A stretch of 64,000 nucleotides of DNA, from NCBI GenBank assembly GCA_030324005.1, contig JARDVH010000106.1:28197315-28261314 (forward strand). The letters run 5' to 3'. Source of the stretch: Negaprion brevirostris. Its lineage: Eukaryota. Position 1 is the stretch's first letter; each line of letters opens with the position of its first letter. Shown in pieces: positions 42,001 through 51,000 of the stretch. Position numbers: made by a program.

Positions 42001-45000
42001 TAAATAGTAGTTGGCATCCCAGTACCTGTACAGCTGGAATCTCATAATTTCGATCAGGGCAGCAAACTAAAGGACAAAGTATTACCATTCTGTATTGTAT
42101 GTTCTTTTTCTCCCCTTTTTTATTTTACTGCTGTCAAGTAACAGGGTTGGTCTTTGCCTGAATATCCTTTTGTAAACTGAATTAAACCTGTATTGTAACA
42201 ATGTTTGGGTTAATGGAAACAGCTGACTTGGCTGTTGTAGGATTTTATTTTATTCTTGTATTGTGCATTGGGTGTTTTGTGATGTGGAAGTCCAATAGAA
42301 GTACTGTGAGTGGGTACTTTCTTGCAGGACGCTCCATGACCTGGATGGCAATAGGTGCTTCATTGTTTGTCAGCAATATTGGCAGTGAACATTTTATTGG
42401 GTTGGCAGGATCTGGAGCAGCCAGTGGGTTTGCAGTGGGAGCTTGGGAATTAAATGCAATGTTGATTTTACAGGTATTAGGTTGGATTTTCATCCCTGTC
42501 TATATCAGGTCTGGTGTATATACCATGCCACAATATCTTTCTAAACGTTATGGCGGTAACAGAATAAAAATCTATTTTGCATTGTTGTCCTTGCTATTGT
42601 ATGTTTTCACAAAGCTTTCCATCGATTTGTATGCTGGTGCACTGTTCATTCGAGCCTCGCTTGGTTGGGACTTGTATCTCTCTATCATCGTTTTGATTGC
42701 GTTGACTGCAATATTAACTGTCACGGGAGGACTTGTGGCTGTCATCTACACTGATGTTCTGCAGGCCATTCTTATGATTGGTGGAGCTTTAACATTGATG
42801 ATTGTGGGAATGGTCAAGGTGGGAGGTTTTGACGAACTCAAGCACCAATATATGCTAGCCTCACCAAATGTTACAGCAGTTGTTACTTCTTTCAACCTAA
42901 GTTCTACCATTACCTGCCGCATTCACCCAAAAGAAGATTCTCTAAAGATGTTGCGTGAACCAACTGATGAGGATATTCCTTGGCCTGGTTTCCTGTTGGG
43001 TCAAACACCAGCTTCTGTTTGGTATTGGTGTGCTGACCAAGTAATTGTGCAACGTGTCTTGGCAGCAAAAAATATTGCTCATGCCAAAGGGGCAACCCTG
43101 ATGGCTGGTTTTTTGAAACTCTTGCCTATGTTTATCATAGTCATCCCAGGCATGATTTCCAGAGTTCTTTTTACTGATGAGATTGCTTGCATTAATCCAG
43201 AGCACTGTATGCAAGTATGTGGCAGCAGAGCAGGTTGCTCAAATATTGCCTATCCACGATTAGTATTGGGAATCTTGCCTGCAGGCCTTCGAGGCCTAAT
43301 GATGGCCGTCATGATAGCAGCTTTAATGAGTGATTTGGATTCCATATTCAACAGTGCCAGCACCATATTTACCCTTGATATTTACAAGCATCTTCGGAAG
43401 GCTGCCAGCTCTCGAGAACTTATGATAGTAGGTCGGCTGTTCGTTTTCGTCATGGTAGCTATAAGTATTGCCTGGGTTCCTGTAATTGTAGAGATGCAGG
43501 GAGGACAAATGTATCTTTACATTCAAGAAGTTGCAAATTATCTCACCCCACCAGTGGCAGCGTTGTTTCTTCTTGGTATTTTTTGGAAGCGCTGCAATGA
43601 ACAGGGGGCTTTCTATGGAGGGTTGGTTGGATCTATTTTGGGAATCACACGCTTGATTCTTGCATTTATATATCGAGCACCAGACTGTGATCAAGTTGAT
43701 ACTAGACCAGGTTTTATCAAAAATGTTCACTACATGTATGTGTCAACTTTTCTATTTTGGACCACGATTTTTACAGCAGTAATAGTGAGTCTGCTGACCC
43801 CTGCTCTTCCCAGAACATATACTTCCCATACCACCTTCTGGGCATTGACAAACATGGACACCATAAAAGACCCCCAGAAAGAAGAATGTGATAAACTAAC
43901 AAACCAATCTATGGCTGAATGCAATGGCCACACCCCAAGTGTGGATAAGTCTGACAGTAAAGCTGCTGATGGAATAGAATTAGTTCTGTTAACACCTGGA
44001 AGTGATGATTCCAAATCTTTGAACTCATCATGCATCTTGGAAGGGCAGACACCAAACGATGGTTATATAAATGGACAAACAATTGCTGTGGACACAGAAA
44101 CCAAAGAGGAGCCAGAACCAGAAAGAAGCAAATGGTGGAAACTTTTTGACTGCATTTGTGGATTAAAAAATTCGGATGTAAAAACTCCAGTAACCAGAAC
44201 TCCTTTCGAAGATGAAATGATTTGCTTACAAATGCTTCAAGAAAGACCAAGGATTAAAATATTGTTAAATGTTGGACTTGTAGTTGTATTATCTTCTGGC
44301 ATATCCATGTTCATTTATTTCTCTTTGTAAAATCAGCCTGCAAATTCAGGTGATGCTGTTTTTGTTTTGAAGACTTTTTTTAAAGAAAAAGTTCCTTTTG
44401 TTTGCAAAGGTAGAGAACTCCTATCTTTTTTGTAAAGTAAAAAGGGGTGGTGAGGGAGATTATTAAGCTGAGATGAAATTGTAGGTGCCCAGTCTGATCG
44501 GAGCTGATGCAGAACAGAGGTAGTAAAATTGGCTGAACTGTGGTGGGGGAAAATTAAATTATATTTCATTTTCTGTTTGCTGCTCAGCAGTAGCTGCTGG
44601 AATATACATGTGAATTTCAGGTGAGGACTAAGATCAGGTTCAGTTGTGATGTGGCTTTGGTTAAGTATCCTTCTGTCCACTGTTGAGGCTCACTGGCCTC
44701 CTATGNNNNNNNNNNATTCCTGCCCAATAAACTATGTTAGAAAATTAAATTAGTGTCTTCTGGTGGAGTGAAAGTGGCTGGAAAAGAAATGTTGGAACTT
44801 GGAATTAAGTCCATGGCCAACTTAATTTTGGGGACTGTAATTTAACATGTTTTATGTAGGTAAATTCATTTTCTTGTATTTATTCTGTGAATTATGTGCA
44901 AATAAGCTATGACTTTTTAAAGCAAGACAATTCTATATTTATTTTATAAAGTTGATTTTTCCTATACTGATCAACAAAAATTTATATGTGGGGAGGTGAA

Positions 45001-48000: not shown

Positions 48001-51000
48001 TAAAATACCAAACTGAAGAAGTTGTGATCGGACTTAATAGTGCTCTGGTCAGACCCTTTTAAGCATTGTTTCCATTTCTTGCCAGTATGAAGAGAAGGAC
48101 ATTCACAGTAGATTNNNNNNNNNNNNNNNNNNNNNNNNNNNNNNNNNNNNNNNNNNNNNNNNNNNNNNNNNNNNNNNNNNNNNNNNNNNNNNNNNNNNNN
48201 NNNNNNNNNNNNNNATGATTTCCAGAGTTCTTTTTACTGATGAGATTGCTTGCATTAATCCAGAGCACTGTATGCAAGTATGTGGCAGCAGGGCAGGTTG
48301 CTCAAATATTGCCTATCCACGATTAGCATTGGGAATCTTGCCTGTAGGTCTTCGAGGCCTAATGATGGCCGTCATGATAGCGGCTTTAATGAGTGATTTG
48401 GACTCCATATTCAATAGTGCCAGCACCATATTTACCCTTGATGTTTATAAGCATCTTCGGAAGGCTGCCAGCTCTCGAGAGCTTATGATAGTAGGTCGTC
48501 TGTTTGTTGTCTTCATGGTAGTTGTAAGCATTGCCTGGGTTCCTATAATTGTAGAGATGCAGGGAGGACAAATGTATCTTTACATTCAGGAGGTAGCAGA
48601 TTATCTCACCCCACCAGTGGCAGCATTGTTTCTTCTTGGTATTTTTTGGAAGCGCTGCAATGAACAGGGAGCTTTCTGTGGAGGGTTGGTTGGATCTATT
48701 TTGGGAATCACGCGCTTGATTCTTGCTTTTATATATCACACGCCGGAATGTGACCAGTCTGACACCAGACCAGGTTTTATCAGAAACATTCACTACATGT
48801 ATGTAGCAGCCATTTTGTTTTGGACCACTATTATCACAGCAGTAGTAGTGAGTCTGCTAACCCCTCCTCCTTTCAGAGAGCTGATTTCCAACACCACATT
48901 TTGGGCATTAAAAAACACAGAAATCACTGAAAGCTGCCAGAAGGAAGAATCTGATAAATTAACAGACAAAAGTTTGGTAGCATGTACTGATACCAGAAGT
49001 GCAGATATTTCTGATTCTAAACACAAAGAGGATGATTCCTCTCCACTGGCTGGTCAAATAGAATTAATTCTATTAATGCCCGAAAGTGGTGATCCCAAAT
49101 CTGTGAGCTCCACATGTATTGCTGAAGATCAGATACAAAATGACCGTTTTATAAATGGCCAAACAACTGTTGTGGACCAAATGGACAAAGAGGAACATGA
49201 CTTGCAAAGGAGAAACATATGGTGGCAATATTTTGATCAGTGTTGTGGAATCAAAAGTTACAGCATGAAAAAAACAGCAAAAGATTCTGTAGAAAATGAA
49301 GTTATTTCCTTAGAAATGTTGCAGGAGAGTCCAAAAATTAAATTCTCATTAAATGTTGGACTTGTTGTTGTATGGTCCATTGGCATATTCATGTTTATCT
49401 ATTTTTCTCTGTAAAAATTAATACAGTGTGTTCCCATTTCCCTTGCCCTGAGATGATGTGCCCTTTTGTTTGGTCCAGTTTTGAAAAAGTTTAAAAAGTG
49501 TAAAGGTCAGGTTATAGTTTTGGAGTCGCTTTGGTTAAATGATGATGTATTTTTACATTTTTTTTTGTTTGTTGAATTAATATGTTTAGTTTGGAATGGT
49601 TTTATGTAATGAGACCAGCATTTTAAGACCCCCTGTCTGATGAAGCGGTATCTATTTTCTTCCTATTCTATTTTCTGCAGAATGCTGGCATATGTAGCTT
49701 TATAACTGACTGGAGTGAAGGATCTGAATTGATTTCAGATTGTAGCTGTTGCAACATAAATTCCCAAAACCAATATGCAACCCCACAATCTTGTATGAAT
49801 TGACCGTTGCTAATTAAAATCAGTCATACAATTTAGAAGTTAATTACTTTTCTTCATCCTGTGTATAATGTTGTTGCTGGAGTTGGAGAGTGAAGATGCA
49901 ACAGACTGATAGCTGTAAGAGAATAATGTGTGCAGGTTTCTGTATAAATTTCATTTAGAATGTTTTTTGGGACAAACAACAGTATAGGGTAAGGACAGTA
50001 GAAATATTGCTATTTGCAATTTGCGTTCTTCATAATACAAAAATGTTACTGGCATAGAAAAAAATCTAAAGCTTAAGTAAATCGTGCATCTCTTCTTCAG
50101 CACCTGGTGTATATTTTCTGAAAGTTTTGAAAATTGAAACTTGACAATCCAAACATCTAATTGTCCATCTCGCTATTGCCCAAATATTTCATTATGGCCC
50201 TATCTCTAACTCCATTCCTTTCAAGTTTTTGAACATGTCTCTTGCCTGCTGTGTGTTCATCGCTTCTGAAAGAACCTGCTTCAATCTGGTTGATGGTACT
50301 TGCCAAAATCTTGAATAACATTTCTGTAACTTCAATCATGATGCTTTATCTTTTGTAATTGCACATGGCTAATAATTACCTTCCAATGCCTTTTCTGTGG
50401 TTCTATCCAAAGCAATCCAGATGCAACAAGTGCATATTTAAAATGTTTTTCATCCATCTGTGAATTGTCGTGTGTAGTACTCCACTCCAAAAATCAATCT
50501 CCTGTTGATGGACGTGCTGTTTCTTGGCAATGTATATCATCTGCTAGGATAGGCTTCCTTCCATGTGTTTGAAGACTCTCAATTCTATCGCCACCAATTT
50601 TTTCAACCCGTTGAATGCCTTTTGTATCAATCAAGCAACTTTGGTTTGGAGGAGAAAACTAGGCACTTACAGGATTTATCAATGTGAAGATTATAGTTTT
50701 AGGCAGCTGCCATGAAGTATTGTTCCCTTGCTACTATTTCCTTTTTTTTGGTTTTTAACCTTGGTGTAATACTTAATACCAAGCAGTGCTTTTAAACCCT
50801 ACATTCTATACGTTGTTTACTTCCACATCAGCAATATTACATATCTTGGCTCCGATGTATGCTAAAACTCCTGTGTATCCCATTTACACTTCCATCTTAA
50901 CAATGATAATGTCCTCCTTGTTGGTCTGCTAACCTCCATTGATAACAAGCTATCTAAAACGCTGCTAGTCACCTGCATTCTCATTTGCCATCTCTTACAA

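What the first reader, a model, noticed from the sequence alone, without database searches (positions are those of the whole stretch)
42201..49414. Tandem duplication of SLC5A3 (SMIT1), both visible frames open
Seen: two same-strand SMIT1 reading frames, with the second intact wherever it is visible and clearly non-allelic (diverged loop, net 7 extra residues, barely alignable 3' flank). Established: SLC5A3 is single-copy in mammals and imports myo-inositol as an osmolyte. Inference: a retained tandem pair in a probable elasmobranch, an osmoconformer reliant on organic osmolytes, may reflect subfunctionalised osmolyte transport by tissue, salinity or substrate. I cannot tell whether this pair has already been described.
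[Added by the scan's program, not by the reader: the finding's places include an assembly gap (unread letters, written N; its length is only estimated) at 44706 to 44715, 48115 to 48214. Whether the letters on both sides are continuous or in frame is not known: test that first.]
Basis: partly seen in the sequence, partly recalled or inferred. Interest (0 to 1): 0.75.

Follow-up and report, generated by a model that had tools for sequence, protein, structure and literature searches.

The report
Old shark inositol-transporter gene pair
The window holds both members of an inositol-transporter gene pair that sharks and rays have kept side by side since before they split, but the first gene as assembled is a hybrid of the two and half of the second is lost in an assembly gap.

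Summary
There are two same-strand SLC5A3 (SMIT1) frames. Copy 1 (42201-44330) has 709 codons. Copy 2 (48215-49414) has 399 open codons starting at the first base after a 100-N gap.

This is not a new duplication. Copy 1's C-half belongs to paralog A (706-710 aa) and copy 2 to paralog B (714-717 aa). Both are annotated in RefSeq on one chromosome-size sequence in 17 of 22 elasmobranch species seen. In the C-terminal tree A and B each contain sharks and rays.

Copy 1 is a hybrid. Residues 4-216 are B-type at 13 of 13 informative sites. Residues 361-709 are A-type at 47 of 49. The switch interval contains the position where copy 2's contig begins, inside a 77-nt stretch identical in both copies. 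I read this as an assembly mis-join (about 65%) rather than a real gene conversion (about 30%).

Conversion has acted at this locus. Synonymous divergence between the copies is 0.16 in the core and 0.74 in the tail.

Whether copy 2 is whole is unknown, and the proposed division of labour is untested. Five literature searches found no description of the pair.

The parts
42201..44330 (+). Copy 1: an uninterrupted SLC5A3 (SMIT1) reading frame of 709 codons plus stop. As assembled it is a B/A hybrid.
   Evidence: ORF. Full Pfam SSF match. 94% identity to Mustelus asterias SMIT-like protein.
42201..42848 (+). Part of copy 1 (residues 1-216) that carries paralogue-B residues.
   Evidence: 13 of 13 informative sites are B-type. 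The first 317 residues are 96.5% identical to Cetorhinus B against 90.2% to Mustelus A. In the N-segment tree it sits inside galeomorph B (support 93). The AU test rejects placing it with A (p 0.0198).
42849..43280 (+). Switch interval of copy 1 (residues 217-360). It has no A/B-informative site other than residue 228, which matches neither type.
   Evidence: The interval contains position 43152, the equivalent of the point where copy 2's contig begins.
43281..44330 (+). Part of copy 1 (residues 361-709) that carries paralogue-A residues.
   Evidence: 47 A-type, 0 B-type and 2 'neither' among 49 informative sites. Sister to Mustelus A with support 100/99.
43152..43228 (+). 77-nt stretch of copy 1 that is identical to the first 77 nt of copy 2's contig (48215-48291).
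   Evidence: The first difference between the copies is at nt 78 after the gap.
42101..42144 (+). Pyrimidine-rich run followed by AG dinucleotides about 60 nt upstream of the ATG. A candidate 3' splice site for an upstream non-coding exon (inferred only).
   Evidence: Sequence printed. No transcript evidence.
44706..44715 (.). 10-N gap in copy 1's 3' flank, 375 nt past the stop codon.
   Evidence: It lies outside the reading frame.
44716..48114 (.). Contig between the two copies. It holds no SMIT-like sequence, and its right end has no similarity to copy 1's 5' region.
48115..48214 (.). 100-N gap (placeholder size). It would have to hold at least 951 nt of copy 2's coding sequence if copy 2 is whole.
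48215..49414 (+). Copy 2: the visible 399 codons plus stop of paralogue B, equivalent to copy 1 residues 318-709 with a net 7 extra residues.
   Evidence: ORF. SSF profile positions 252-406. 91.2% identity to Carcharodon and Cetorhinus B. Inside clade B, which has support 100/98. 39 B-type, 3 A-type, 5 'neither' and 2 gapped among 49 informative sites.
48215..48733 (+). Core part of copy 2 (equivalent to residues 318-490) with low synonymous divergence from copy 1.
   Evidence: dS 0.158 and dN/dS 0.16 over 173 codons.
48734..49411 (+). Tail of copy 2 (variable loop and last membrane helix) with old divergence from copy 1.
   Evidence: dS 0.736 over 217 codons. The last helix alone has dS 0.84 with dN/dS 0.15.

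Best explanation
The window carries both members of an old, elasmobranch-wide pair of SLC5A3 (SMIT1) genes.

Paralogue A is 706-710 aa long. In other species it is the copy also spliced to MRPS6 exons. Paralogue B is 714-717 aa long. Both belong to the sodium:solute symporter family. By homology with mammalian SMIT1 they should import myo-inositol with sodium (inferred, not tested).

The pair arose before sharks and rays split. Since then the membrane core has been repeatedly homogenised by gene conversion. The C-terminal loop, the last helix and the flanks have diverged. Any division of labour is therefore more likely in regulation, trafficking or expression than in the transport chemistry.

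In this draft assembly the locus is damaged. The first frame joins a B-type N-part (residues 1-216 at least) to an A-type C-part (residue 361 onward). The second frame is only B's last 399 codons.

The simplest reading is an assembly mis-join. The assembler walked from B's N-half into A's C-half through a stretch where the copies are identical. This left B's C-half as a short contig that starts in that same stretch, and lost A's N-half.
For: Shown:
1. Copy 2 is B and copy 1's C-half is A. In the C-segment tree clade A has support 100/99 and clade B 100/98. Each holds sharks and batoids. Copy 1 is sister to Mustelus A (100/99). Copy 2 lies inside galeomorph B.
2. Seventeen of the 22 elasmobranch species seen have both A and B. 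In all 17 the two share the same longest-contig length.
3. A-type isoforms of 788-792 aa end in MRPS6 sequence.
4. The hybrid: 13 of 13 B-type sites at residues 4-216, then 47 A-type and 0 B-type of 49 sites at residues 361-709. The AU test rejects grouping copy 1's N-part with A (p 0.0198).
5. The switch interval (nt 42849-43280) contains the equivalent of copy 2's contig start (43152). It also contains the 77 identical nucleotides.
6. The assembly is fragmented: 18 gaps in 64 kb.
7. None of the 17 species with both copies shows an A-with-B pairing within a species in the N-segment tree. A recent conversion of the N-part therefore has a low prior.
8. Concerted evolution. In residues 236-490, shark/batoid site patterns are 6 by lineage, 1 by paralogue and 0 crossed. 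In residues 491-709 they are 0, 13 and 1 (Fisher p 1.8e-4). Within the window, dS is 0.158 in the core and 0.736 in the tail (Fisher p 1.9e-8). The constrained last helix still has dS 0.84.

Inferred: sodium-coupled inositol transport, from family membership only.
Against: Against the mis-join:
- Copy 1 lies in one gap-free contig from 38691 to 44705. That contig is joined to the upstream scaffold by only a 10-N gap.
- The A-type N-half predicted to be left over is nowhere in the window.
- A collapsed repeat after a real conversion would explain the same picture with fewer assembly errors.

Against 'copy 2 is a whole gene':
- Its first 317 or more codons are unseen.
- The nearest relative, Mustelus asterias, has no B protein among the listed hits in the length ranges searched, 219-2000 aa. 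Proteins under 219 aa were not searched.

Against a firm date:
- The AU tests do not reject Callorhinchus grouping with A (p 0.255) or with B (p 0.086).
- The AU test does not reject A monophyly in the core segment (p 0.33). The tree evidence for concerted evolution is therefore suggestive. The site-pattern and dS evidence is the stronger part.

Against adjacency in this genome: it rests on 100-N joins.
Confidence: 0.65

Rival explanations
1. The hybrid is real. In this shark lineage, after its split from the Mustelus lineage, gene conversion copied B's N-terminal 220-340 codons or so into A. The two N-halves are now nearly identical. The short-read assembler collapsed them into one, which is why copy 2's N-half is a gap.
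For: Conversion has acted at this locus. dS is 0.158 in the core against 0.736 in the tail. Lineage-type site patterns are 6 to 1 in residues 236-490. Batoid A and B form one clade in the core tree (SH-aLRT 98), and Heptranchias and Narcine A/B pair up (supports 81 and 93). Copy 1's contig has no gap and is continuous with its 5' flank. No spare A-type N-half is present in the window. Copy 2's contig starts in 77 nt identical to copy 1, as expected at the edge of a collapsed repeat.
Against: In the N-segment, A stays one clade (support 89). None of the 17 species with both copies shows species-level A/B pairing. Mustelus A, 96.9% identical to copy 1 in the C-half, is only 90.2% identical in the N-part, so the event would have to be very recent. 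The end of the contig left of the gap shows no match to copy 1's 5' region. The core just right of the switch (residues 361-446) still carries A/B-specific residues.
Confidence: 0.3
2. Copy 2 is a 5'-truncated relic, a dying or dead gene in this lineage, not the visible half of a whole gene.
For: No N-half is visible. No B protein of Mustelus asterias, the nearest relative, or of Scyliorhinus torazame appears in the searches.
Against: 399 codons are open. dN/dS against copy 1 is 0.16 in the core. The end branch is 0.071 against 0.097 for the S. canicula B sister. 39 of 49 informative sites keep the B-type residue. If copy 1's N-part is B's own (the mis-join reading), B has an intact N-half.
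Confidence: 0.1
3. The two frames are not neighbours. Copy 2's 4.6-kb contig was placed here wrongly by the scaffolder.
For: The contig 48215-52802 is bounded by two 100-N joins of unknown size.
Against: A and B share the same chromosome-size sequence in 17 of 17 species that have both. Their RefSeq accession numbers lie close together, for example Heterodontus ...221 and ...227, and Amblyraja ...301 and ...305. Closeness of numbers is an indirect sign of adjacency only.
Confidence: 0.1
4. The second frame is an uncollapsed allele (haplotype duplicate) of the first.
For: None beyond the draft state of the assembly.
Against: DNA identity is 80.5%. The loop is diverged with a net 7 extra residues, and the 3' flanks cannot be aligned. 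Each frame has its own orthologues in other species.
Confidence: 0.01

Closest known systems
Elasmobranch RefSeq pairs named 'sodium/myo-inositol cotransporter(-like)', called paralogues A and B here
   Same: Copy 1's C-half is 96.9% identical to Mustelus asterias A. Copy 2 is 91.2% identical to Carcharodon and Cetorhinus B. Lengths match: 709 aa against 706-710, and the +7 loop fits 714-717. The gene pair is the same one, on one chromosome, in 17 species.
   Different: Here copy 1's N-part is B-type, unlike the 17 A proteins aligned and treed (two further A proteins were not aligned). Copy 2's N-half is not assembled.
Tetrapod SLC5A3 / SMIT1
   Same: 66-69% identity over the full length to tetrapod SMIT1. 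Full SSF domain. The coding region is uninterrupted. In sharks, as in mammals (the mammalian arrangement is recalled), the gene is tied to MRPS6: A-type isoforms end in MRPS6 sequence.
   Different: Two copies instead of one. No MRPS6 exon was found in this window. Transport and tonicity regulation were not tested here.
Teleost slc5a3a / slc5a3b
   Same: Two SMIT1-type genes in one genome. These names appear among the hits.
   Different: A passage of PMC9309457 treats the zebrafish pair as duplicates from the teleost genome duplication, not as a tandem pair. No teleost was included in my trees, so the teleost pair's independence from the elasmobranch split was not tested here.
SGLT1 (PDB 7sla), the nearest solved structure
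   Same: Same fold family. E 6.5e-207 over residues 6-553.
   Different: A glucose carrier, not an inositol carrier. The variable loop after residue 553 is not covered. No SMIT1 structure was in the copy searched.
Hybrid genes and concerted evolution in tandem pairs (Lepore-type globin fusions, opsin arrays; recalled, not tested)
   Same: A single switch between two tandem paralogues within a highly similar stretch. The core is homogenised and the ends are divergent.
   Different: Here the hybrid may exist only in the assembly.

Membership tests
Sodium:solute symporter family (Pfam PF00474, SLC5) | Match to the SSF profile above the curated cut-off | tested here: met
   Copy 1 scores 492 bits over profile positions 1-406 of 406. 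Copy 2 scores 194.6 bits over positions 252-406. The cut-off is 22.8 bits.
SLC5A3 / SMIT1 orthogroup | Closest named relatives are SMIT1 proteins rather than other SLC5 members | tested here: met
   All named hits among the 120 listed for copy 1 are sodium/myo-inositol cotransporter or SC5A3. For copy 2 the same holds apart from two long invertebrate proteins. SLC5A11 was not compared explicitly.
SLC5A3 / SMIT1 orthogroup | Coding region without introns | tested here: met
   Copy 1 has 709 codons in one frame and matches 709-aa orthologues end to end. Copy 2's visible 399 codons are uninterrupted. Its first half is unseen.
SLC5A3 / SMIT1 orthogroup | Linkage with MRPS6 | tested here: inconclusive
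   No MRPS6 exon was found in the window. Exons may lie outside the window or in gaps. In other elasmobranchs A-type isoforms carry MRPS6 sequence.
SLC5A3 / SMIT1 orthogroup | Sodium-dependent myo-inositol uptake | not testable with these tools
   Needs expression and uptake assays.
Elasmobranch paralogue B | Placement in clade B on the part of the protein that escapes conversion, with the longer loop | tested here: met
   Copy 2 lies inside clade B (support 100/98). It has a net 7 extra residues. 39 of 49 informative sites are B-type.
Elasmobranch paralogue A | A-type sequence along the whole length | tested here: not met
   Copy 1 is A-type only from residue 361 onward. Residues 4-216 are B-type at 13 of 13 sites. 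The AU test gives p 0.0198 against grouping the N-part with A.
Pseudogene or relic copy (for copy 2) | Stops, frameshifts or relaxed constraint | tested here: not met
   There is no stop in 399 codons. dN/dS is 0.16 in the core. The end branch is not long. The unseen N-half leaves truncation open.

The most novel reading that the evidence does not exclude
The B/A hybrid is real. A very recent gene conversion moved B's N-terminal half into A in this shark lineage. It would be the latest episode of a conversion process, running for several hundred million years (a recalled age), that keeps the transport cores of the two paralogues nearly the same while the C-terminal loop and flanks diverge. The pair would then be a natural case of one transport machine under two regulatory regimes. 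Hybrid alleles might segregate in living sharks.
Probability: 0.3. Interest if true: 0.45.

Novelty: new member of a known kind. Interest (0 to 1): 0.33.

Why it matters
For genome annotation, copy 1 should not be taken at face value as this species' SMIT1. Its N-part probably belongs to the neighbouring gene. The locus needs long reads.

For biology, elasmobranchs rely on organic osmolytes. They have kept two SMIT1 genes side by side since before sharks and rays split. None of the five literature searches found a paper treating the pair. One kidney transcriptome paper lists a single slc5a3 contig (passage of PMC9396271).

The mosaic history, with a converted core and a diverged loop, says where to look for functional differences. 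These are most likely in regulation and expression, less likely in substrate.

Tried and rejected
- **Tonicity-enhancer motif.** The consensus TGGAAANNYNY is recalled, not taken from a call. It gave 22 matches against 18.9 +/- 4.0 expected, and 25 of 100 shuffles did as well. There is no enrichment and no cluster near either copy.
- **MRPS6 exons.** tblastn with three shark or skate MRPS6 proteins and isoform tails gave nothing significant, at default and at relaxed settings. A pattern search for the N-terminus also found nothing.
- **Left edge of a collapsed repeat.** The last 1.1 kb before the 100-N gap shows only chance matches of 13 nt or less to 38691-44705.
- **Shorter, truncated B proteins in relatives.** There are none among the 120 listed of 189 hits of 219-699 aa. 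Proteins under 219 aa were not searched.
- **Dating against chimaeras.** The tree puts Callorhinchus outside A+B (97/91). The AU tests do not reject the alternatives (p 0.255 and 0.086).
- **Tree test of concerted evolution in the core.** A monophyly is not rejected (p 0.33).
- **Pfam on four other long frames** (36742-37149, 36064-36459, 34568-35086 and 14097-14591, all minus strand): no family.
- **Allelic explanation.** Rejected.
- **Literature.** Five searches found no description of the pair.
- **Not possible here.** No shark DNA collection was available. The gene order of A, B and MRPS6 in other species, and codon-level tests across species, could not be done. The closed collections viral contigs and metagenome contigs were not used.

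
Full report
**What is in the sequence**

The window is a fragmented draft: 18 runs of N in 64 kb, with G+C at 38%. Between 42 and 50 kb there are two long same-strand frames.

- Copy 1 runs from the ATG at 42201 to the stop at 44328-44330. 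It has 709 codons and matches the whole Pfam sodium:solute symporter profile.
- Copy 2 is open from 48215, the first base after a 100-N gap, to the stop at 49412-49414. It has 399 codons and matches the last 155 positions of the same profile.
- The two align over copy 1 residues 318-709 at 71.6-71.8% protein identity and 80.5% DNA identity over 1213 nt. Similarity stops at the stop codons.

**The gaps**

Across 48115-48214 the sequence is not continuous. Nothing SMIT-like lies to the left, and tblastn finds no second N-terminal half anywhere in the window. If copy 2 is whole, at least 951 nt of coding sequence lie in a gap written as 100 N.

Seven of the 18 gaps are exactly 100 N, and the others range from 10 to 427 N. 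I take the 100-N gaps to be joins of unknown size (inference). Copy 2's contig (48215-52802) lies between two of them, so its adjacency to copy 1 depends on the scaffolder.

The 10-N gap at 44706-44715 is 375 nt past copy 1's stop and does not affect the frame.

**Whose genome, and is the pair new?**

Copy 1's best hit is Mustelus asterias at 94% identity, followed by other sharks, rays, the elephant fish and then tetrapods at 66-69%. The window is a shark's, near the carcharhiniforms. It is not human.

Copy 2's best full-length hits form a second set of elasmobranch proteins of 714-717 aa. Expanding ten clusters shows two families:

- A is 706-710 aa long.
- B is 714-717 aa long.
- Both are annotated in RefSeq as 'sodium/myo-inositol cotransporter(-like)'.

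Counting the species named:

| Group | Species | Which |
|---|---|---|
| Both A and B | 17 of 22 | |
| A only | 2 | Mustelus asterias, Scyliorhinus torazame |
| B only | 3 | Pristiophorus, Stegostoma, Rhincodon |

In all 17 species with both, A and B are reported on a contig of the same length, and their accession numbers lie close together. The six clusters listed as single-member were not expanded.

A-type isoforms of 788-792 aa end in MRPS6 sequence. A is therefore the MRPS6-linked copy, as in mammals (the mammalian arrangement is recalled).

**Trees**

I aligned 48 rows:

- 17 A and 18 B proteins
- Callorhinchus
- 10 bony vertebrates
- the two window frames

Left out as near-duplicates were Chiloscyllium punctatum A and B, Mobula birostris A and Mobula hypostoma B. 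Also left out were all unnamed hits, all isoforms, and the mammal-wide cluster P0024.

On residues 491-709 (careful search):

- Clade A has support 100/99 and clade B 100/98. Each contains sharks and batoids.
- Copy 1 is sister to Mustelus A (100/99).
- Copy 2 lies in galeomorph B, next to Scyliorhinus canicula B (93/85). Its end branch is 0.071, against 0.097 for that sister.
- Callorhinchus falls outside A+B (97/91). The AU tests do not reject it grouping with A (p 0.255) or with B (p 0.086).

The duplication therefore predates the shark-ray split. Its timing relative to the chimaeras is only a best estimate.

**Copy 1 is a hybrid**

| Part of copy 1 | Identity to A | Identity to B |
|---|---|---|
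| First 317 residues | 90.2% (Mustelus A) | 96.5% (Cetorhinus B) |
| C-half | 96.9% (Mustelus A) | about 71% |

I then used the nearest relatives only: five A and three B proteins of carcharhiniform and lamniform sharks.

- Residues 4-216 are B-type at 13 of 13 informative sites. One more site, residue 228, matches neither type.
- Residues 361-709 are A-type at 47 of 49 sites, B-type at 0 and neither at 2.
- Copy 2 at the same 49 sites is B-type at 39, A-type at 3, neither at 5, and gapped at 2.

In the tree of residues 1-230, copy 1 sits inside galeomorph B (support 93). The AU test rejects grouping it with A (p 0.0198). An earlier call with a wider shark set labelled residues 236 and 250 as A-type. 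The alignment shows that the nearest B proteins carry the same residues there, so those two sites do not bound the switch.

The switch lies within nt 42849-43280. This interval contains 43152, the equivalent of copy 2's first visible base. It also contains a run of 77 nt that is identical in both copies.

**Concerted evolution**

Between the two window copies, synonymous divergence depends strongly on position:

| Region (residues) | dS | dN/dS |
|---|---|---|
| Core, 318-490 | 0.158 | 0.16 |
| Tail, 491-709 | 0.736 | 0.40 |
| Last helix, 686-709 | 0.84 | 0.15 |

- There are 2 differences in the first 120 nt after the gap.
- The core-versus-tail difference gives Fisher p 1.9e-8.
- The last helix is constrained yet has high dS. 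Protein constraint alone therefore does not explain the low core dS.

Across species, I classified sites by majority residue in shark A, shark B, batoid A and batoid B:

| Segment (residues) | By lineage | By paralogue | Crossed |
|---|---|---|---|
| 236-490 | 6 | 1 | 0 |
| 491-709 | 0 | 13 | 1 |
| 1-230 | 1 | 4 | 0 |

- The difference between the middle and C-terminal segments gives Fisher p 1.8e-4.
- Means over 42 species quartets agree. For the middle segment they are 8.9, 1.5 and 0.1. For the C segment they are 1.7, 21.6 and 1.1.
- In the core tree, batoid A and B form one clade (SH-aLRT 98). The AU test does not reject A monophyly (p 0.33).

I conclude that gene conversion has homogenised the core after the shark-ray split. 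The loop and last helix kept their paralogue identity.

**Real hybrid or assembly artefact?**

Both readings predict that copy 2's contig begins where the copies become identical.

For a mis-join:
- The assembly is fragmented.
- The copies are about 95% identical in the core, with long identical runs.
- In 17 species no recent A/B exchange is seen in the N-part.
- The very close Mustelus A has a normal A-type N-part.

For a real conversion followed by collapse of the repeat:
- Copy 1's contig is gap-free and tied to its upstream scaffold.
- No leftover A-type N-half is in the window.
- Conversion is demonstrably active at the locus.

Against the collapse reading: the contig left of the gap does not end in sequence shared with copy 1's 5' region.

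I put the mis-join at about 65% and a real conversion at about 30%. Only reads can decide.

**How it most likely works**

By family membership both genes encode sodium-coupled inositol carriers. The nearest solved structure is SGLT1 (E 6.5e-207 over residues 6-553). Transport itself is inferred.

The core is kept nearly the same, while the loop and flanks differ. A division of labour would therefore most plausibly lie in regulation, trafficking or expression. Nothing here tests it.

- A recalled tonicity-enhancer motif is not enriched.
- A CpG-rich stretch at about 29.7-30.5 kb is a candidate promoter.

**Literature**

Five full-text searches found no paper describing two SLC5A3 genes in elasmobranchs. 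I saw passages only of three papers:

- PMC9396271 lists one 'slc5a3, smit1' contig in a stingray kidney table.
- PMC6988351 discusses SMIT in teleosts.
- PMC9309457 says zebrafish probably kept both teleost-duplication copies of slc5a3.

Supplements were closed and might hold gene lists that mention the pair.

**Verdict**

The pair is old, widespread and already annotated, though apparently not discussed in print. The window's own version is compromised by the assembly. Interest is modest. The conversion mosaic and the possible real hybrid are the parts worth following up.

Noticed in passing
window 29700-30500: The only CpG-island-like stretch in the window. G+C is 0.52-0.55 and CpG observed/expected is 0.63-0.84, with CCAAT-like boxes. 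It is broken by three gaps and lies about 12 kb upstream of copy 1. It is a candidate promoter or first non-coding exon for SLC5A3/MRPS6. The MRPS6 start was not found.
   Followed up: partly
window 36742-37149 (-) and about 1375-1485 (-): Open frames whose translations look like tails of interspersed-repeat (LINE-type) proteins common in fish genomes. That resemblance is recalled. Pfam gave no match for the first. The second appeared only as a chance tblastn hit.
   Followed up: partly
window, all 18 gaps: Seven gaps are exactly 100 N and the others are 10-427 N. This suggests two scaffolding stages, with the 100-N joins of unknown size.
   Followed up: no
protein searches, not the window: Mustelus asterias and Scyliorhinus torazame show only an A protein. 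Rhincodon, Stegostoma and Pristiophorus show only a B protein. This may reflect lineage losses, pseudogenes or annotation gaps.
   Followed up: no
window 44208-44258 and isoforms P0248, P0250, P0254, P0260: In other elasmobranchs a splice donor inside the A reading frame, after '...RPRIK', joins SMIT to MRPS6 exon 2 and gives proteins of 788-792 aa. In copy 1 the next residue is I, where the one standard A protein printed (Carcharodon) has V, so that internal donor may be absent here.
   Followed up: no
window 39881-39926 and 1068-1113: A 46-nt direct repeat at 93.5% identity. It is the only other self-match of the 38-47 kb region and is probably a dispersed repeat fragment.
   Followed up: no
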